Source: Balneolales bacterium (lineage in GTDB: Bacteria; Bacteroidota; Rhodothermia; Balneolales; HLUCCA01). Taken from it: a stretch of DNA of 62,029 nt. The position numbers and the translations under genes were made by a program. The notes under the pieces were generated by a model, which saw only the letters and a program-made list of their open reading frames with translations, ran no database searches and was not told the origin of the DNA. How positions within the stretch are numbered: the first letter of the stretch is position 1; every line of letters starts with the position of its first letter. The stretch lies in contig JANJTJ010000121.1 in the NCBI GenBank assembly GCA_024711145.1, positions 1 through 62,029 on the forward strand, written 5' to 3'. Shown in pieces: positions 6,381 through 12,200 of the stretch.

Positions 6381-7658
6381 ATGATGCGTAAAGAACTCTT
6401 GCTGATCGGGGGACTGGGTATTTTCTGTCTGGGATTGATATTCTGGTTCATCTTTTCAGAATCGTCGCCCTTCGCCCCGAAATCGGAACCCGTCTCACCG
6501 GCCACTTTGGCCAATACCACCGGCATCGTGGAAATCCGCCGGGCCGGCCAACCGCATTGGACCAACGCCGAACCCGGCGATTCGCTCCTGCTCGGCGACC
6601 AATTGCGCACGTCCAACCACGCACAGGCGTTGCTGCGGTTCAGGGCTTCGGCCTGGATATTGGTGGATTCCTCGACCACCCTGACACTGTCCCAGTCCAC
6701 CGGACGCGACCCGGCCCATATCGATCTGGAGACCGGCGCGGTCACCTACAACCGCCTGGTGAGCAAAAGGAACGTGCCCGTCGGTGTCAAAACCGCGGAA
6801 GGCACCTTCTTGAGTGCCCGCCTGGACGAGGTGGACCTGCCGGCCCAGGTCCGCGAAGAATCGTATGTGTCCCGTTACCGGGGCACCACGCGGGCCACGG
6901 CCGACATGGGCGCCTTCCGATGGGTGGTGGGCACCACCACCGTCGACGTACCCGAAACCAACATGCTTACCGCATCCTCCGGGGCGCCGGTGGTCAGGCC
7001 GCTCAAACCCGCCGTGGCCATCCGATACCCGGCCCAGGAAGCCGAATATCCGGCCGGCTACATGTCGCGCGGCTTCAATGTGCTTTGGGGGGCCGATGCG
7101 GCCGCCACTGGCTACCGTGTGGAATGGATGCGTATGGATTCCATACCCCAGTTGGCCAGCGCCCGCGAAGTGGACGAAACCGGTTTCCGCGTGCGGCTGC
7201 TTCCCGAGGGCGTGTACCGGTTCCGGGTACGCACCCGCCTGGCCGACGGACACAGCCTTTGGTCGGAGCCCCTGTCGGTACGGATCGGCGGCACCCGGTA
7301 CCTGTCGGATGTGCCCAAGCCCGATGCCGACTCCGAACCCATCCGGTTCACACACAAACCCTTCGAGGAGAGTTGGATCGTGGGTGGGTACGTGCGCCAG
7401 GACCTGGTGGCCGACCATGAGGTCGTCGTGTATCTGCAGGCGGACGTATGGTACCGGCAACCGGCGGTGGAACCGTTCCGCATACCGCTTCAGCCCGACG
7501 GCTATTTCGAAACCGTGACGCCCAAGGGCCGCGGGTTGTATGTATCCCTGGTGCGCCAGGGTGCCGGCACCTGGCCCGAACTGGTATCCCATCTGCGGTT
7601 GTTGCCCATCCCCGACGGGGAATCGGTGCGGTTCAACGTCGAGCGGCGGATCCACTGA
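6381..7658 (+). CDS. Single-pass membrane protein with FecR-like domain, fibronectin type III-like domain and a C-terminal beta-rich domain
   Basis: N-terminal TM (LLLIGGLGIFCLGLIFWFIF); GD-x-LRT...IDLETGAV FecR pattern; W...GYRVEW...YRFRVR...WSEP FN3 pattern. Confidence 0.7.
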   Translation: MMRKELLLIGGLGIFCLGLIFWFIFSESSPFAPKSEPVSPATLANTTGIVEIRRAGQPHWTNAEPGDSLLLGDQLRTSNHAQALLRFRASAWILVDSSTTLTLSQSTGRDPAHIDLETGAVTYNRLVSKRNVPVGVKTAEGTFLSARLDEVDLPAQVREESYVSRYRGTTRATADMGAFRWVVGTTTVDVPETNMLTASSGAPVVRPLKPAVAIRYPAQEAEYPAGYMSRGFNVLWGADAAATGYRVEWMRMDSIPQLASAREVDETGFRVRLLPEGVYRFRVRTRLADGHSLWSEPLSVRIGGTRYLSDVPKPDADSEPIRFTHKPFEESWIVGGYVRQDLVADHEVVVYLQADVWYRQPAVEPFRIPLQPDGYFETVTPKGRGLYVSLVRQGAGTWPELVSHLRLLPIPDGESVRFNVERRIH

Positions 7659-9067
7659 TGCGCACCCTTCTGGCCTTGCTGCTGTTGGCGGCCCTGGGTA
7701 CCCCCCGGGTTGCCGCCCAGACCGATTCGGTGGCGGTGTATCGGCACCGTGCGGAAATAGCGGTCGATTTCGGCGATTTCACCGGCGCCCTGGCCGAATA
7801 CCGGCATGCCGCACGGCTGGCCCCGGCCGACAACGACCTCCGGTTCCGCATCGGGTTGGTCTTGGGATGGATGGGCAAGTATGAAGCGGCCATCGCCGAA
7901 CTGCGCCCATTGCTCGCGGCCGACCCCGACAACCGGGACGTCCTGGCCGCCTTGGCCCGGGTGCTCGCATGGTCGGGCCAAGGCGGCCGGGCCGAAGCCT
8001 TGGTCGCCGAGGCGCGCTCTCGCGCGCCCGGCGACCAAGGCCTGCTGGGCCTCATGGCCCAGCTCCGGTATTTCGCCGGCGACCTGGGCGGAGCCCGGCG
8101 GTGGGCCGACCAGGCTCTGGCCATCGACCCCGCCGAACCCACCGCCCTCAGCATCGACGCCGGCATCCGGTCGGCCATGGCGGTCCGCTCAACCACGTCC
8201 TCGCTCAACCCCTGGGATAGCGACGACACCTACGCGCGTGTGACCCGCCAACACGTACGTTGGGGCCTGGCTCCCGACCGGTTCCTGGCTATAGACGCCT
8301 CCGCCACCCGAAGCGGCAACCGCACCACCTCGGCCAGCGAAACTGCCTTCACCAGCGGGGCCCGGTTCGAAGCCGATCCTTTCGGCCCCTGGAAATGGAC
8401 CGCCGGCTTGTCGGTGGCCTTCCTGCCCGACGGACTCCGACCCGGCCTGAACGCGTCCGCCGCCTGGGTGGACCATGCGCATACGGTTTCCTTGTTCAGC
8501 AGCCGCTATCCCCTGCTCGACACTCCCTTCCTCATCGCAAGTGGTTCGCACATCTGGGAGAACGGTGTGGTGTATGCCCATACCGGCACCCTGCGCACCG
8601 TGGTGGATGTCGGCTTCGCCGCCTTGCCCTCCACTCGGCGCCTCAGTATGAACGCCCAAGTGAGCCGTGCTTGGAAATGGGGAGCCCTCGAAATGGAACC
8701 CGGCCTGCGGCTACGCGTGGCCGATTTCACGAAGGATGCCACCGGTAGCGGATTTTTCGCGCCGGATTTCTCCCATCAGGAAACGGTACGCCTGGACCTT
8801 CGGACCGCCCCCGTGGGTCGCTATCGGTTCGGAGCCGGGGTGGAAGCGGGTCGACAGCAGTACAAGCGGTTCAACGCGGCCGCAGGCGACCCCACGTTGA
8901 CCTGGGCCGCCGACGTCCGCCTCGGCATACAGCCTACACCCGCTTTCGATGTGGAAGTGGCCTATCTGTACAGCACCCTGCTGAGCGCCAGCACCCAAGA
9001 CCGCCTAGCAGGTGACTATTGGGTACGGTCGGTGGAAGTGCGGATCCGCCTACGGTTCGGATCCTGA
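7658..9067 (+). CDS. Signal peptide + TPR repeats + C-terminal outer-membrane beta-barrel (PgaA/BcsC/YaiO-like export porin)
   Basis: Start placed at 7658 (TGATG overlap) giving signal MRTLLALLLLAALGTPRVAA-Q; TPR-like helices (ALAEYRHAARLAP, GKYEAAIAELRPLLAADP); alternating beta-strands with GFFAPDF and terminal IRLRFGS. Confidence 0.75.
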   Translation: MRTLLALLLLAALGTPRVAAQTDSVAVYRHRAEIAVDFGDFTGALAEYRHAARLAPADNDLRFRIGLVLGWMGKYEAAIAELRPLLAADPDNRDVLAALARVLAWSGQGGRAEALVAEARSRAPGDQGLLGLMAQLRYFAGDLGGARRWADQALAIDPAEPTALSIDAGIRSAMAVRSTTSSLNPWDSDDTYARVTRQHVRWGLAPDRFLAIDASATRSGNRTTSASETAFTSGARFEADPFGPWKWTAGLSVAFLPDGLRPGLNASAAWVDHAHTVSLFSSRYPLLDTPFLIASGSHIWENGVVYAHTGTLRTVVDVGFAALPSTRRLSMNAQVSRAWKWGALEMEPGLRLRVADFTKDATGSGFFAPDFSHQETVRLDLRTAPVGRYRFGAGVEAGRQQYKRFNAAAGDPTLTWAADVRLGIQPTPAFDVEVAYLYSTLLSASTQDRLAGDYWVRSVEVRIRLRFGS

Positions 9068-11119
9068 CCCGGCCGGAGCCACCACCACCGGCTCCTGTTC
9101 CACCCAGTCGGCGGGCAGCCAGGTCCGCATGGCCAAAGCGGTGTCGTAATCCGAAAAACATCCGACCTCCCGGTCGGCGGCCACCCGGATGCGGTAGCAA
9201 TCGGTGCGGGTGGCGGTGGTGTCGAAGGCGGCCGCCTGGGTAGCCGGCACGCGCCAAGGGAAGGAACCCGGGAAGGTCTCCCGTTCGAGCCCCAGCTCCC
9301 GGAGCATCTCCCTATAGGATAGGTCCCGCGGGAAACGGCCCACACCCACTTGCCACCAGATTCCGCCGGTGTGGTTCGGGTCCGGCACCACGTTCACATG
9401 GTCGAACCGGGTGGCGAGGTACTCGGCGAACGCCAAGGCGCCCACTCGGCTGCGGAACGTGCCTACCACCCAATGCCGGTACCCGTCCGGGAAGGGCGGC
9501 GAATAGACATACGGCGGCGGTGGCGGTGCTTGCACCAGGGTGCGGCCCGCGTCGACGTCCGGATCGTGGACGTACCGCAGCAGGTCGTACCGCGTGACCA
9601 CCAGGTACAGGGCCAGCACACCCATCACCAGCCAGCCCCAAGGCATTTTCCGGGCCGGTGCGGCCGGTTTGGGCTTGGGAGCGGTGGCGGCGTTACCGGC
9701 CGCGGCTCCCAGGCCTTTGCGGGTCATGGCTCCCCATTCCTTGTTCCCCTTCAGGAAATCCCATAGCCCCTGCAGCCGCCACCAGGCATGCCGCTGCCGG
9801 TAGCCGATGTTTTCCAGAAACGCATAGGCGATCATGACCACCACATGTTTGAGGCGGGGGTACCGGCGGTAGGTGAATTCTTCGCACAACACGCTGGCGA
9901 CGCTCAATACCATGCCCAGCAATACCGCCGATGCCAGGAACAGGATGGTGAATTCCATATTCAGCGCATCCACCCACCAGGCCAGGATGAACAGGGCGAA
10001 CCCGCCGAATTCCACGATGGGACCGAGCAGTTCGAAGAAGACGAAGAAAGGAACCGCCACGAATCCCAACCGCCCGTAGGTGGGATTCATGAACATTTTG
10101 CGATGGCGCCAGAGGGTATCGGCCAGGCCGCGCTGCCAGCGATTGCGCTGCCGCGACAATACGGCGGGGTCTTCGGGCACTTCGGTCCAACACACGGGTT
10201 CGGGTATGAACCGCACGCGGTACGGAATCTTACGCTCCCGATGGTACCGGTGCAGGCGCACCACCAGCTCCATGTCCTCGCCCACCGTGTCGTGCAGGTA
10301 CCCGCCCACGGCCAACACGGCTTTGCGGTCGAAGATGCCGAACGCGCCGGATATGATGAGCAGGGAATCCAGGTAATCCCACCCCACCCGGCCGAAGAGG
10401 AAGGCCCGCAGGTATTCGACCACCTGGATGCGCGCATAGTAGGATTTCGGGATGCGCACTTCCTTCAGCTCGTTGTTCTCGAACACGCAGTCGTTGGCCA
10501 CACGCACGATCCCACCCACGGCGATGGTGGTCTCATCCTCGATGAAGCACCGCAGCATGTTCTGCAACACCAGGGGCTCGAGCACGGAATCCGCATCGAT
10601 GGCGCAGAAGAGGTCGTTGCGCGAGACGTTGATGCCGGCGTTGAGGGCGTCGGCCTTGCGCCCGTTCACTTTGTCCACCACGACCAACTCCGGATACAGC
10701 TCCGATTTGTACACGGTCTTGATGGGCTGATGATGGAGCACCAGGGGCACGTAGCGGTCCACGGGTTTGAGCCTGAAATGCTCGATGAGCACGTCCATGG
10801 TGCGGTCCTTGCTCCCGTCGTTGATCACGATGATCTCGTAGTTGGGGAACTGCAACTGCAACAGGGATTTGACCGAGGCCACCACGGTGCTTTCCTCGTT
10901 GTAGGCCGGTGCCAATATGCTGATGGGATTGTACAGGTTGGAACTGAACAACCCCTTTAGGGAATACACCTGCTTCTGGCGCAGTTGCTTGCGGATATGC
11001 AGGAAACTGATCGCGATGAGGGCCAGATACACGAAATTGAGCCCGATGAAATACGCCAGGATCCACACGTCCAGCGTTTCCAACAGCCGCAGTACCGGTT
11101 CTCTCAGGAATTCACGCAT
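9050..11119 (-). CDS. Processive family-2 glycosyltransferase (IcaA/PgaC/NodC-like) with a C-terminal extra TM helix and SPOR-like domain(s)
   Basis: APAYNEE, INDGSKD, KADALNAG, IDADS (DxD), GEDMEL and QRNRW motifs; C-terminal TM helices; WGAMTRKG followed by about 215 additional residues. Confidence 0.88.
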   Translation of the reverse strand: MREFLREPVLRLLETLDVWILAYFIGLNFVYLALIAISFLHIRKQLRQKQVYSLKGLFSSNLYNPISILAPAYNEESTVVASVKSLLQLQFPNYEIIVINDGSKDRTMDVLIEHFRLKPVDRYVPLVLHHQPIKTVYKSELYPELVVVDKVNGRKADALNAGINVSRNDLFCAIDADSVLEPLVLQNMLRCFIEDETTIAVGGIVRVANDCVFENNELKEVRIPKSYYARIQVVEYLRAFLFGRVGWDYLDSLLIISGAFGIFDRKAVLAVGGYLHDTVGEDMELVVRLHRYHRERKIPYRVRFIPEPVCWTEVPEDPAVLSRQRNRWQRGLADTLWRHRKMFMNPTYGRLGFVAVPFFVFFELLGPIVEFGGFALFILAWWVDALNMEFTILFLASAVLLGMVLSVASVLCEEFTYRRYPRLKHVVVMIAYAFLENIGYRQRHAWWRLQGLWDFLKGNKEWGAMTRKGLGAAAGNAATAPKPKPAAPARKMPWGWLVMGVLALYLVVTRYDLLRYVHDPDVDAGRTLVQAPPPPPYVYSPPFPDGYRHWVVGTFRSRVGALAFAEYLATRFDHVNVVPDPNHTGGIWWQVGVGRFPRDLSYREMLRELGLERETFPGSFPWRVPATQAAAFDTTATRTDCYRIRVAADREVGCFSDYDTALAMRTWLPADWVEQEPVVVAPAGSGSEP

Positions 11120-12200
11120 CGAGTTCGGCCATCACATGGTGGACAAGATCCTGCAGGTCGGCCGTGCTGGCCGATACCCGGTCCAGACCGGCTTTGCCGG
11201 CTTCGCCCAGGCGGGCCAGGGCGAACACGGCCGCCATGCGCACCATGAGCTCGGTGTCGGCGGCCAATACTTCCAATGTATCGATGGCTGCGGCATCGCC
11301 GAGCGCTTCCAGGGCCTTGGCGACAGCCTGGCGCACGCGGGGCGACGGATGCGAGGCGTACCCGGCGATCCGCTCGCCGGCCGGGTCGAACCCGAATCGG
11401 CCCAAGGCATAGCAATACGCCTCGAGGATGCGGTCCGAGTCGGTCCGGTAGCCCGCTTCGAACAGCTCGTACAGCGCTACGGCTTCGCCCACATACCCGA
11501 TGTCGGCCATGGCCTGGATCAGAATGGCCACATGCGACTCCGGCAGGTCGGGTTGGGCGATCAGGGCCATCAGCAGGGCGCCCTCTTCTTCCATCTGGTC
11601 GTTCCGGCTGCTGTGGAAACGGTAGAGCAGCTCCAACAGGGCCAAACGCGACACCCGCTCCCGCCGGGCCATGGCCGCCACGGCCTCCACGCGAACGGCC
11701 GCCGACGGATGCGCCACCAGGGAGGTGGCGGCCGCATGGGCCAACAACCGGTTGCCATGGTCCAGTATGGAACGCAGACGGTCGGTTTCGTCGGTGGTCA
11801 GGTTGTCCACCCAGGCATAATACATACAGGCCTCGGCCTCGTCCGATTCGTCGCCCTTGAATAGTTTCTGATGGAAATGGGCCCGTATGGCCGGCACCGC
11901 CATCAGGTGCCTCAGCCGTTCGGTCTCCTCCCCCTGCACCTGGTTGAGCAGGTCGGTGATCAGGTCGGTGTAGGGGATCACGTCTTCGGGCACCTTGAGT
12001 TGGGCGGCCACGGCATCCAGATCGTCCGAATCGCCCAGGGTGTAGGCCAGAATGGACGGCGTGAGCGCATCGCGGCGCGCGGCGGCGAACCGGGCGCGGC
12101 GTTCCTGCCAGGTGCGCACGATCAGGGAAGTGACGAACAGATACACCGTGACCAGCACCAAGGCGGTTGTGACCAGCCAGATGAACCGGATGGCCAGCAT
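11112..12200 (-). CDS. Membrane-anchored HEAT-repeat protein
   Basis: N-terminal TM; repeats such as HPSAAVRVEAVAAM, HPSPRVRQAVAKALEAL, DTELMVRMAAVFALARLG. Confidence 0.85.
   Translation of the reverse strand: MLAIRFIWLVTTALVLVTVYLFVTSLIVRTWQERRARFAAARRDALTPSILAYTLGDSDDLDAVAAQLKVPEDVIPYTDLITDLLNQVQGEETERLRHLMAVPAIRAHFHQKLFKGDESDEAEACMYYAWVDNLTTDETDRLRSILDHGNRLLAHAAATSLVAHPSAAVRVEAVAAMARRERVSRLALLELLYRFHSSRNDQMEEEGALLMALIAQPDLPESHVAILIQAMADIGYVGEAVALYELFEAGYRTDSDRILEAYCYALGRFGFDPAGERIAGYASHPSPRVRQAVAKALEALGDAAAIDTLEVLAADTELMVRMAAVFALARLGEAGKAGLDRVSASTADLQDLVHHVMAELDA

What the first reader, a model, noticed from the sequence alone, without database searches (positions are those of the whole stretch)
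9050..9740. Glycan synthase carries an extra TM helix and SPOR-like domain(s): possible septal or polar targeting
Seen: where this GT2 subfamily normally ends (WGAMTRKG), the protein continues with an Ala/Pro linker (AAAGNAATAPKPKPAAPARK), a hydrophobic helix (WGWLVMGVLALYLVV) and a PPPPP stretch. Then come YRHWVVGTFRSRVGALAFAEYL...WWQVGVGRF and a second degenerate unit (YRIRV...VGCFSDYDTALAMR). Established: SPOR domains show the Y-x-V-Q-x-G-x-F...A...W-x-V-x-V-G-x-F pattern and bind denuded septal peptidoglycan. Inference: the synthase is anchored at division sites or new poles, giving localised adhesin-like polymer secretion. I know of no characterised GT2-SPOR fusion.
Basis: partly seen in the sequence, partly recalled or inferred. 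Interest (0 to 1): 0.75.

Follow-up and report, generated by a model that had tools for sequence, protein, structure and literature searches.

The report
Polysaccharide synthase with fused SPOR tail
A membrane sugar-polymer synthase of an uncultured Balneolales bacterium carries an extra membrane helix and a diverged cell-wall-binding (SPOR-type) domain on its outer side, a rare uncharacterised fusion whose wall-binding ability is doubtful because the key glutamine is missing.

Summary
The gene at 9050-11119 (-) encodes a 689-aa processive GT2 synthase. Its relatives normally end 2-14 residues after WGxMxRxG.

Residues ~547-624 are a diverged SPOR-family domain:
- Pfam misses it, but orthologous tails in six sister species reach the PF05036 cut-off and align to it (E 1e-8).
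- An HMM of 30 ordinary SPOR domains from the same bacterial family scores it 17.1 bits; the best of 5000 shuffles scores 9.0.
- AlphaFold predicts beta-alpha-beta-beta-alpha-beta.

The "second unit" (625-689) has no significant SPOR similarity. Charge statistics and the cytoplasmic gating-loop-like motif place the tail in the periplasm. DNA contigs from other samples confirm the junction.

Septal or polar targeting is untested and weakened. The glutamine that contacts MurNAc in characterised SPOR domains is Val551 here. It is absent from 48 of 49 synthase-tail units, but present in 28 of 29 ordinary SPOR domains of the same family.

About 33 orthologous protein clusters with long tails exist in public data. 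Seven already carry GT2 plus PF05036 hits, and none is characterised. I rate it a new variant of known parts, of moderate interest.

The parts
9050..11119 (-). Whole gene: 689-aa processive GT2 polysaccharide synthase with C-terminal extension (stop codon 9050-9052)
   Evidence: ORF and translation. Pfam Glycos_transf_2 / Glyco_tranf_2_3 / Chitin_synth_2 on aa 67-432. AF2 model pLDDT 80; Foldseek top hits are hyaluronan, cellulose and chitin synthases.
9713..11119 (-). Synthase core, aa 1-469: TM1, GT-A domain (DAD 175-177, GEDME 280-284, QRNRW 324-328), interface and TM helices. It ends at the WGAMTRKG motif, where most relatives stop.
   Evidence: Invariant columns in a 50-sequence alignment, including W462, G463, M465, R467. 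Family end point.
9713..9736 (-). WGAMTRKG (aa 462-469): likely counterpart of the cytoplasmic gating-loop motif WGTSGRK/R of hyaluronan synthases
   Evidence: W, G and R are invariant in the family. [quoted passage not shown] The equivalence is an inference from motif similarity and position after the last amphipathic helix.
9644..9712 (-). Basic Ala/Pro linker (aa 470-492), predicted cytoplasmic and disordered
   Evidence: 4 K/R and 0 D/E in the 15 aa before the helix. pLDDT below 50.
9593..9643 (-). Extra transmembrane helix (aa 493-509; AF2 helix 494-517), N-in/C-out
   Evidence: Hydropathy peak. Across 12 extension-bearing homologues there are 35 K/R vs 9 D/E upstream and 15 K/R vs 21 D/E downstream.
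9482..9592 (-). Periplasmic Pro-rich spacer (aa 510-546, includes PPPPP 533-537)
   Evidence: pLDDT below 50. A strain variant carries an in-frame 6-nt insertion here.
9248..9481 (-). Diverged SPOR-family domain (aa 547-624): b1 547-555, a1 558-569, b2 575-580, b3 588-596, a2 602-609, b4 620-624
   Evidence: AF2 tail model, pLDDT 80-89. BLASTP to orthologous tails E 1e-8 and 9e-9, and those tails pass the PF05036 cut-off. hhalign of tail units vs the genome's own SPOR domains gives 96.6%. Canonical-SPOR HMM 17.1 bits vs at most 9.0 in 5000 shuffles.
9467..9469 (-). Codon of Val551, at the position of the conserved SPOR glutamine (FtsN Q251 / RlpA Q270)
   Evidence: Alignments; tally; role of the Gln from PMC6895207.
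9350..9352 (-). Codon of Gln590, at the position of the beta3 arginine (FtsN R285 / RlpA R309) of the basic patch
   Evidence: My own hand alignment of WWQVGVGRF to the canonical [FY]-R-V-x-x-G pattern seen in the sequences. The FtsN sequence used for residue numbering is from memory. The role of R285/R309 is from PMC6895207.
9053..9247 (-). Lineage-specific C-terminal 65 aa (aa 625-689), predicted b-b-a-a-b; not demonstrably SPOR
   Evidence: AF2 pLDDT about 68-72. hhalign 4-11%. No counterpart in orthologues.
11112..12200 (-). Upstream partner gene: TM + HEAT-repeat protein, overlapping the synthase start by 8 nt
   Evidence: Pfam HEAT_2 1.2e-18. Synteny kept in orthologous loci.
7655..9067 (+). 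Convergent TPR + beta-barrel outer-membrane gene, overlapping the synthase 3' end by 18 nt (the open frame begins at 7448)
   Evidence: TPR Pfam hits. Conserved next to the synthase in orthologues. The Gracilimonas counterpart is TPR + YaiO barrel; the TPR parts are homologous, E 2e-7.

Best explanation
The gene encodes a membrane-embedded processive GT2 polysaccharide synthase, of the same kind as PgaC, BcsA, chitin synthase and hyaluronan synthase. It belongs to an uncharacterised family that sits in a receiver - TM-HEAT - GT2 operon next to a TPR/beta-barrel outer-membrane gene. In one family of Balneolales the C-terminus has been extended. Elsewhere it ends just after a cytoplasmic gating-loop-like WGxMxRxG motif; here it gains a basic cytoplasmic linker, one extra N-in/C-out TM helix and one or two periplasmic SPOR-family domains. 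The window's protein has one diverged SPOR domain (aa 547-624) plus a private 65-aa C-terminal piece. That much is shown. The following is inferred. The domain acts as a periplasmic glycan-strand-binding anchor that ties the inner-membrane synthase to the sacculus, holding it in register with the wall and its outer-membrane porin. Characterised SPOR domains bind peptidoglycan glycan mainly through backbone atoms of the beta-sheet, so some wall affinity is plausible. The two side chains that read the MurNAc lactyl carboxylate (Gln, and the beta3 Arg) are Val551 and Gln590 here. Binding is therefore probably weaker than, or differently specific from, canonical denuded-glycan binding. Septal enrichment is possible but not implied.
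For: Anatomy:
- Translation and Pfam.
- Family end point and stepwise extensions: none, then TM only, then TM + SPOR.
- AF2 models; Foldseek of the whole model to HAS, BcsA and Chs at E 1e-17 to 1e-10.

SPOR homology:
- Orthologous tails score 24-32 bits against PF05036 (cut-off 21), confirmed in a whole-genome scan.
- Window tail vs those tails: BLASTP E 1e-8 and 9e-9.
- Profile of tail units vs the genome's own SPOR domains: 96.6%, E 4.9e-10.
- The same profile's top PDB hit is the CwlC SPOR domain 1x60, E 6e-4.
- An HMM of 30 canonical SPOR domains from the same bacterial family scores the window tail 17.1 bits, with 0 of 5000 shuffles above 9.0.

Topology:
- Mean K+R per loop across 50 homologues alternates 0.4, 3.9, 3.0, 0.04, 2.5, 5.8 (out, in, in, out, in, in), and the flanks of the extra helix are positive on the N side.
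- WGxMxRxG resembles the HAS gating loop, which must reach the cytoplasmic active site.

Backbone-dominated glycan binding in SPOR domains: PMC6895207. All characterised SPOR domains bind denuded glycans: bioRxiv 10.1101/2022.07.01.498525. The junction is real and the tail region is seen in a metatranscriptome.
Against: - Pfam PF05036 does not hit the window's own tail even at E<=1.
- Foldseek of the tail model gives no hit at E<=0.001. SPOR structures (DamX 2lfv, RlpA 6i09) have the highest probability (0.82) and lowest rmsd, but E is 0.14-0.27, among generic ferredoxin-like/ACT folds.
- The conserved Gln is absent from 48 of 49 synthase-tail units, against 28 of 29 ordinary SPOR domains of the same family that keep it. 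This pattern looks like selection for a different surface, not drift.
- No binding or localisation data exist.
- The tail alignment used for AF2 is shallow (10 rows).
- I could not inspect model coordinates, so I cannot say whether the C-terminal 65 aa cover the sheet face.
Confidence: 0.5

Rival explanations
1. One reading: the tail is a functional canonical SPOR domain. It binds amidase-denuded septal peptidoglycan and so concentrates the synthase at division sites or new poles, giving localised polymer secretion.
For: The SPOR family assignment of aa 547-624. Periplasmic location. Every SPOR domain tested so far localises to the septum and binds denuded glycan. Phe555 (HMM position 12) and Trp588 (FtsN W283 position) are kept. 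The genome has ordinary Gln-bearing SPOR proteins, so the ligand should exist.
Against: The Gln (HMM position 8) is Val551 and the beta3 Arg is Gln590. The Gln is missing in 48 of 49 tail units across 32 orthologues. Mutating this Gln in FtsN and DamX reduces septal localisation (PMC6895207). There are no localisation data.
Confidence: 0.2
2. The SPOR fold has been repurposed as a periplasmic lectin for the synthase's own nascent polymer. It would be a fused co-polymerase element, analogous to BcsB: single TM anchor plus periplasmic carbohydrate-binding domains sitting over the BcsA channel exit.
For: Loss of exactly the side chains that read the MurNAc lactyl carboxylate (Gln, beta3 Arg), while the sheet scaffold and Phe are kept, is what one expects if the ligand is an uncharged hexosamine-type or other glycan. 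The extra TM helix appeared first on its own in Balneolaceae, suggesting that it packs on the synthase. The helix follows the gating-loop motif, the same position as TMH5 of hyaluronan synthase. No separate periplasmic co-polymerase with a recognised carbohydrate-binding domain lies in the cluster.
Against: No SPOR domain is known to bind anything but peptidoglycan glycan. The polymer is unknown: the best NCBIfam match, PgaC_IcaA, scores 133 bits against a cut-off of 422. AF2 gives low confidence for the helix and linker, so packing against the channel is not shown.
Confidence: 0.25
3. The tail is a protein-protein docking module. It would contact the periplasmic TPR domain of the adjacent outer-membrane barrel protein or the FecR-FN3 protein, to build a trans-envelope conduit.
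For: An exposed hydrophobic residue (Val in 23 of 49 units) at a sheet-surface position. Conserved neighbours with large periplasmic domains.
Against: No co-variation or complex model was obtained. The number of units and the tail length vary widely between orthologues (1 or 2 units, 160-400 aa), while the partners stay similar.
Confidence: 0.1
4. The tail is a decaying, functionless appendage in this lineage.
For: The window's unit is the most diverged (no Pfam hit). Only one unit remains, plus an unalignable end.
Against: AF2 predicts a confident fold. The strain-level indel is in frame. The architecture is kept in at least 6 species and about 33 protein clusters. The region appears in a metatranscriptome.
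Confidence: 0.05

Closest known systems
SPOR domains of FtsN, DamX, DedD, RlpA (E. coli, P. aeruginosa) and CwlC (B. subtilis), Pfam PF05036
   Same: About 75 aa, beta-alpha-beta-beta-alpha-beta, extracytoplasmic, placed after a TM helix and a Pro-rich linker as in FtsN, DamX and DedD. Shares the x-V-x-x-G-x-F beta1 motif with the Phe, and the aromatic-x-V-x-x-G beta3 motif. Profile-level homology.
   Different: Attached to a polysaccharide synthase rather than to a division protein, amidase or lytic transglycosylase. Lacks the conserved Gln (Val551) and the beta3 Arg (Gln590). Below the Pfam threshold. Ligand untested.
PgaC/IcaA poly-beta-1,6-GlcNAc synthase (TIGR03937)
   Same: Best NCBIfam match. 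Processive GT2 with D, DxD, ED and QxxRW motifs, and a partner TPR + barrel outer-membrane protein as with PgaA.
   Different: Scores 133 bits against a cut-off of 422, so it is not an equivalog. There is no PgaB-type deacetylase and no PgaD. The partner is a TM-HEAT protein and the operon carries a phosphorelay rather than c-di-GMP parts. It has the extra TM + SPOR tail.
Class I hyaluronan synthases (XlHAS1 8smn/8smp, CvHAS 7sp6-9)
   Same: Closest solved folds (E 8e-17, TMt up to 0.68). A W-G-x-x-x-R gating-loop-like motif after the last interface helix, followed in HAS by TMH5. The extra helix here occupies that position in the sequence.
   Different: 13-16% identity. Most members of this family stop right after the motif. 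No periplasmic domain exists in HAS.
BcsA-BcsB cellulose synthase
   Same: Works-like analogy only: a single TM anchor carrying periplasmic glycan-binding domains next to the channel of a GT2 synthase.
   Different: BcsB is a separate protein with CBD/flavodoxin-like domains, unrelated to SPOR. BcsA is regulated by PilZ and c-di-GMP.
Unnamed MAG proteins P0003, P0006, P0010, P0012, P0014, P0024, P0033 (Balneolales/Bacteroidota metagenomes)
   Same: Orthologues (63-72% identity over the aligned part, which covers 68-91% of the query) with the same GT2-linker-TM-SPOR architecture. Their precomputed Pfam lists already pair GT2 families with PF05036.
   Different: They have two SPOR units, or longer spacers. 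They are annotated only as 'glycosyltransferase family 2' or 'cellulose synthase/PNAG synthase-like'. None has been studied.

Membership tests
SPOR domain (Pfam PF05036) | Match to the Pfam HMM at or above the gathering score (21 bits) | tested here: not met
   No PF05036 hit on the window's tail at E<=1 or in the own-genome scan. Orthologous tails do pass: 24.1-32 bits in G005, G011, G002 and G009; G006 scores 14.9.
SPOR domain (Pfam PF05036) | Profile-level sequence homology to bona fide SPOR domains | tested here: met
   hhalign of tail units vs own-genome SPOR domains: 96.6%, E 4.9e-10. Window unit alone: 50%, E 1.6e-4. Canonical-SPOR HMM: 17.1 bits, with 0 of 5000 shuffles above 9.0. Top PDB hit CwlC SPOR, E 6e-4.
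SPOR domain (Pfam PF05036) | RNP-like beta-alpha-beta-beta-alpha-beta fold | tested here: inconclusive
   AF2 predicts exactly this order for aa 547-624 with pLDDT 80-89. Foldseek cannot separate SPOR (prob 0.82, E 0.14-0.27) from other ferredoxin-like folds.
SPOR domain (Pfam PF05036) | Extracytoplasmic location | tested here: met
   Positive-inside statistics over 50 homologues and 12 extension helices, plus the position after a cytoplasmic gating-loop-like motif. This is a prediction, not an experiment.
SPOR domain (Pfam PF05036) | Conserved Gln in beta1 (HMM position 8; FtsN Q251, DamX Q351, RlpA Q270) that contacts the MurNAc lactyl carboxylate | tested here: not met
   Val551 aligns to the Gln. 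Only 1 of 49 synthase-tail units has Gln, against 28 of 29 ordinary SPOR domains of the same family.
SPOR domain (Pfam PF05036) | Phe at HMM position 12 (RlpA F274) | tested here: met
   Phe555 in VVGTF.
SPOR domain (Pfam PF05036) | Binds denuded peptidoglycan glycan; localises to the septum | not testable with these tools
   Needs sacculus co-sedimentation, ITC and fluorescent fusions.
Processive membrane GT2 synthases (BcsA/PgaC/Chs/HAS type) | GT-A domain with D, DxD, ED and QxxRW motifs | tested here: met
   D101, D175-A-D177, E281-D282 and Q324-R-N-R-W328 are all invariant in 50 homologues. Pfam GT2 families.
Processive membrane GT2 synthases (BcsA/PgaC/Chs/HAS type) | Membrane channel built from TM and interface helices packed on the GT domain | tested here: met
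   AF2 model pLDDT above 85 for aa 60-460. Foldseek to HAS, BcsA and Chs at E 8e-17 to 5e-10 over 540-640 columns.
PgaC/IcaA PNAG synthase (TIGR03937 equivalog) | Score at or above the curated cut-off (422.3 bits) | tested here: not met
   133.5 bits. The product cannot be called PNAG.

The most novel reading that the evidence does not exclude
A SPOR fold has been converted from a peptidoglycan reader into a lectin for another polysaccharide. Fused through an added TM helix, it would act as a built-in BcsB-like co-polymerase that receives the nascent chain at the periplasmic mouth of the synthase. This would be the first SPOR domain with a non-peptidoglycan ligand. The systematic loss of the MurNAc-reading Gln in 48 of 49 units would be its signature.
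Probability: 0.25. Interest if true: 0.7.

Novelty: new variant of a known kind. Interest (0 to 1): 0.45.

Why it matters
Synthase-dependent exopolysaccharide systems (Bcs, Pga, Alg, Pel, Nfr) are not known to carry a peptidoglycan-reading domain on the synthase itself. How inner-membrane synthases are positioned relative to the wall and their outer-membrane porins is poorly understood. A natural GT2-SPOR fusion gives a direct handle on this: either the wall is used as a positional cue for polymer secretion, or the SPOR fold can change ligand. The sharp contrast in the key Gln (28 of 29 against 1 of 49, within the same organisms) offers a ready-made natural experiment on what sets SPOR ligand specificity. 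The finding is confined to a small clade of uncultured Balneolales, and the polymer is unknown, which limits its immediate reach.

Tried and rejected
1. Direct Pfam and NCBIfam scans of the tail found nothing.
2. The word-indexed search of 5.8 billion proteins with the tail found only itself. phmmer of the tail against 1.84 billion representatives found itself plus one spurious low-complexity eukaryote-like repeat protein, P0002.
3. Foldseek of the tail model against the PDB was not decisive. The 'viral' library was not tried, being irrelevant.
4. The second unit as a SPOR repeat was rejected. It has no counterpart in orthologues. The window's single unit aligns to the last unit of two-unit orthologues.
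5. The idea that the tail arose by fusion with a neighbouring small TM-SPOR gene has no support. In Rhodohalobacter and Gracilimonas loci the gene after the synthase is a PD-(D/E)XK protein or a TPR + YaiO barrel, not a SPOR protein.
6. The alternative topology (three TM helices after the GT domain, so the tail would be cytoplasmic) was rejected. The segment 442-470 carries on average 5.8 K+R. The 346-382 helix pair is broken by a single residue, so it is a kinked helix and not a hairpin. WGxMxRxG resembles the cytoplasmic HAS gating loop.
7. An assembly or frameshift artefact at the core-tail junction was rejected (and orthologues).
8. A paper search for any GT2-SPOR or EPS-synthase-SPOR fusion found none in the library.


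Full report
THE OBSERVATION

The longest ORF over the finding is 9050-11119 on the minus strand, 689 aa. 547-568, WWQVGVGRF 588-596, YRIRV 642-646 and VGCFSDYDTALAMR 652-665. Pfam places GT2 families on aa 67-432 and finds nothing in the last 216 aa, even at E<=1.

The organism is an uncultured member of Balneolales: the closest loci are Balneolales and Balneolaceae MAGs from sediment and saline habitats.

The junction between core and tail is real DNA:
- A 5.2-kb contig of one sediment run covers 9000-9900 with two substitutions and no gaps.
- A contig from an unrelated wastewater study spans 9563-9900.
- A strain variant has an in-frame 6-nt insertion inside the poly-Pro codons.
- Two metatranscriptome contigs cover 9206-9494.

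WHERE THE FAMILY NORMALLY ENDS

Among 80 related loci fetched from species-representative genomes:
- About 55 end 2-14 residues after a conserved WGxMxRxG motif.
- Sixteen (Gracilimonas, Fodinibius and other Balneolaceae) add 50-75 residues that hold one strongly hydrophobic helix and a short tail.
- Five, all from the window's own taxonomic family, add a helix plus 160-400 residues.

Within that family of 12 species genomes, 7 have the synthase. Six of these (the window's genome, G002, G005, G011, G006, G009) have helix plus long tail, and one (G007) has the helix only. The extension therefore looks stepwise: nothing, then a TM helix, then a TM helix plus periplasmic domains.

A search of the 5.8-billion-protein collection with the full protein lists about 33 clusters of orthologues of 620-866 aa. 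Seven of them (P0003, P0006, P0010, P0012, P0014, P0024, P0033) already carry precomputed hits to both GT2 families and PF05036. The sources name them only as glycosyltransferases.

IS THE TAIL A SPOR DOMAIN?

Direct tests on the window's tail alone are weak:
- Pfam finds nothing.
- The word-indexed search and an exhaustive phmmer over 1.84 billion representatives find only the protein itself, plus one spurious low-complexity hit.

The indirect and profile evidence is strong:
- The orthologous tails score 24-32 bits against PF05036 (cut-off 21) in G005, G011, G002 and G009, and 14.9 bits in G006. Two of them reappear in an unbiased whole-genome PF05036 scan.
- The window's tail aligns to those tails by plain BLASTP at E 1e-8 (38% identity over 53 aa; also 32% over 94 aa) and 9e-9 (26% over 76 aa, running through to the last strand).
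- A profile of nine tail units matches a profile of five ordinary SPOR domains from the window's own genome at 96.6% probability, E 4.9e-10. The window's unit alone gives 50%, E 1.6e-4.
- The same profile's best PDB sequence hit is the SPOR domain of B. subtilis CwlC (1x60), E 6e-4, end to end.
- As a test that does not depend on any synthase tail, I built an HMM from 30 ordinary SPOR domains found in the 12 genomes of the family. It scores the window's tail at 17.1 bits (aa 552-608). None of 5000 shuffles of the tail exceeds 9.0 bits.
- AlphaFold2 predicts strand 547-555, helix 558-569, strand 575-580, strand 588-596, helix 602-609 and strand 620-624, with pLDDT 80-89. It was run on the full protein with 50 homologues, and on the tail with 10 tail sequences.

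Foldseek against the PDB does not settle the fold. No hit reaches E 0.001. DamX (2lfv) and RlpA (6i09) SPOR domains have the highest probabilities (0.82) and lowest rmsd, but sit among ACT, S6 and Rep-type ferredoxin-like folds at E 0.1-0.4.

I conclude that aa 547-624 is a diverged member of the SPOR family.

The last 65 residues (625-689) are a different matter:
- They are predicted as strand-strand-helix-helix-strand at pLDDT about 70.
- They have no counterpart in any orthologue.
- They reach only 4-11% probability against SPOR profiles, over a 19-25 residue stretch.

At most it is a remnant. The window's single unit aligns with the last unit of the two-unit orthologues.

TOPOLOGY

The full-length model is confident (pLDDT above 85) for aa 60-460. 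It resembles hyaluronan synthases (E 8e-17), cellulose synthase BcsA and chitin synthases.

Mean K+R counts per loop over 50 homologues are:

| Segment | Mean K+R | Side |
|---|---|---|
| N-terminus | 0.4 | out |
| After TM1 | 3.9 | in |
| 339-350 | 3.0 | in |
| 383-387 | 0.04 | out |
| 418-422 | 2.5 | in |
| 442-470 | 5.8 | in |

The last core helix (423-456) is amphipathic and basic. It is followed by WGAMTRKG, in which W, G, M and R are invariant. This resembles the WGTSGRK/R gating loop of hyaluronan synthases. That loop links interface helix 3 to TMH5 and dips into the cytoplasmic catalytic pocket to contact UDP (PMC11750622). The equivalence is my inference from motif and position.

Around the extra helix, 12 extension-bearing homologues sum to 35 K/R against 9 D/E upstream, and 15 against 21 downstream.

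All of this puts the linker in the cytoplasm and the tail in the periplasm, which is where SPOR domains work. It is a prediction, not a measurement.

WHAT ARGUES AGAINST THE SEPTAL-TARGETING READING

In the RlpA SPOR-glycan crystal structures most contacts come from backbone atoms of the sheet. The few side chains that matter are a Gln in strand 1 and a basic patch:
- The Gln is RlpA Q270, FtsN Q251 and DamX Q351. It reads the lactyl carboxylate exposed when amidases strip the peptide. It is the one residue highly conserved among SPOR domains of known structure and preferred at position 8 of the family HMM.
- The basic patch includes RlpA R309 and FtsN R285.
- Mutation of Q251 and R285 lowers septal localisation of FtsN (PMC6895207).

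In the window's domain the Gln position is Val551 (alignments). The strand-3 Arg position is Gln590. This second assignment is my own hand alignment to the canonical [FY]-R-V pattern visible, with FtsN residue numbers taken from memory. Phe555 (HMM position 12) and Trp588 (the FtsN W283 position) are kept.

The Gln difference is systematic:
- Of 29 ordinary SPOR domains with strand 1 in the 12 genomes of this family, 28 have the Gln.
- Of 49 units found in the tails of 32 long-tailed synthase orthologues, one has it. The others have Val (23), Ala (7), Gly (6), Ser (5) and a scatter of other residues.

The synthase tails therefore form a distinct SPOR subgroup with a changed sheet surface. All characterised SPOR domains bind denuded glycan (bioRxiv 10.1101/2022.07.01.498525), so some wall affinity remains plausible. 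Canonical recognition, and hence septal targeting, cannot be assumed.

MECHANISM

Shown: an uncharacterised PgaC/HAS-type synthase with a lineage-specific linker, TM helix and periplasmic SPOR-family tail, conserved in a small clade.

Inferred, and my preferred reading (about 0.5): the tail is a glycan-strand-binding anchor. It ties the synthase to the sacculus and helps keep it in register with the wall and the TPR/barrel export protein, with altered or weakened specificity.

Rivals:
- A repurposed lectin for the synthase's own product, working like a fused BcsB (about 0.25). This would explain why exactly the MurNAc-reading side chains are lost, and why a TM helix alone came first.
- A docking module for the periplasmic partners (about 0.1).
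- A decaying appendage (about 0.05). This is disfavoured by the confident fold, the in-frame strain indel and conservation across species.

COMPARISON WITH KNOWN SYSTEMS

The core is not a PgaC equivalog: it scores 133 bits against a cut-off of 422. The polymer is unknown.

The cluster has a single receiver, a TM-HEAT protein and several kinases upstream. A TPR + barrel gene converges on the synthase and overlaps its 3' end by 18 nt. In Gracilimonas the corresponding gene is a TPR + YaiO-type barrel directly downstream of the synthase. No neighbouring SPOR gene exists in relatives that lack the tail, so the tail is a domain accretion and not a gene fusion with a former partner.

I found no paper describing a synthase-SPOR fusion in the searchable library. 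That library is incomplete.

VERDICT

The second unit is not supported. The functional claim is untested and weakened by the missing Gln. I rate it a new variant of known parts, of moderate interest (0.45). The Gln contrast is the most useful lead for experiments.

Noticed in passing
window 9713-9736 (aa 462-469) and alignment A3: The family-wide C-terminal motif WGxMxRxG (W, G, M and R invariant in 50 homologues) resembles the WGTSGRK/R gating loop of hyaluronan synthases and the SWGTR motif of chitin synthases (the latter from memory). Most members of this family end right after it, so they would lack the TM helices that follow the loop in HAS.
   Followed up: partly
window 7655-9067 (+) and L028:7599-8915: The TPR + beta-barrel gene converges on the synthase and overlaps it by 18 nt. 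In Gracilimonas amylolytica the equivalent gene lies co-directionally after the synthase and hits Pfam YaiO (PF19413, 3.5e-60). The window's barrel does not hit YaiO, though the TPR parts are homologous (E 2e-7). This hints at a link to the uncharacterised E. coli yaiO-yaiP (GT2) cluster (that cluster is recalled from memory).
   Followed up: partly
L021 (G007), L027-L037, L040, L047, L058, L060, L062, L065: Many Balneolaceae orthologues carry only the extra C-terminal TM helix, with 4-20 periplasmic residues and no domain. The added helix therefore has a role of its own, independent of SPOR.
   Followed up: partly
L124 (G002:C14:107259-107480): The one ordinary (non-synthase) SPOR hit in the family that lacks the conserved Gln reads YGIIVHSLP. 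This resembles strand 1 of the genus-g4 synthase tails (YSIAVHSF). It may be a free-standing relative of the tail subgroup, in a 328-aa frame. G008:C38, in a 331-aa frame, has a similar hit, but its sequence was not fetched or examined.
   Followed up: no
protein P0013 (631 aa, metagenome): This orthologue's tail starts like the two-unit type (HYLVLGTFELELNATR) and then turns into Gly/Ala/Val-rich sequence unlike any other tail. It is probably a frameshift or assembly error in that contig.
   Followed up: no
window 9509-9523 (poly-Pro codons), run X2: A strain variant carries an in-frame CGGCGG insertion after 9511. It should lengthen the Pro run by two residues, and there are several nearby substitutions. 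The spacer length is polymorphic in nature.
   Followed up: no
window 11112-11119: The synthase start overlaps the stop of the TM-HEAT gene by 8 nt. The HEAT gene, the single receiver and the REC-kinase gene are spaced by 3 nt or overlap by 4 nt, suggesting translational coupling along the whole operon.
   Followed up: no
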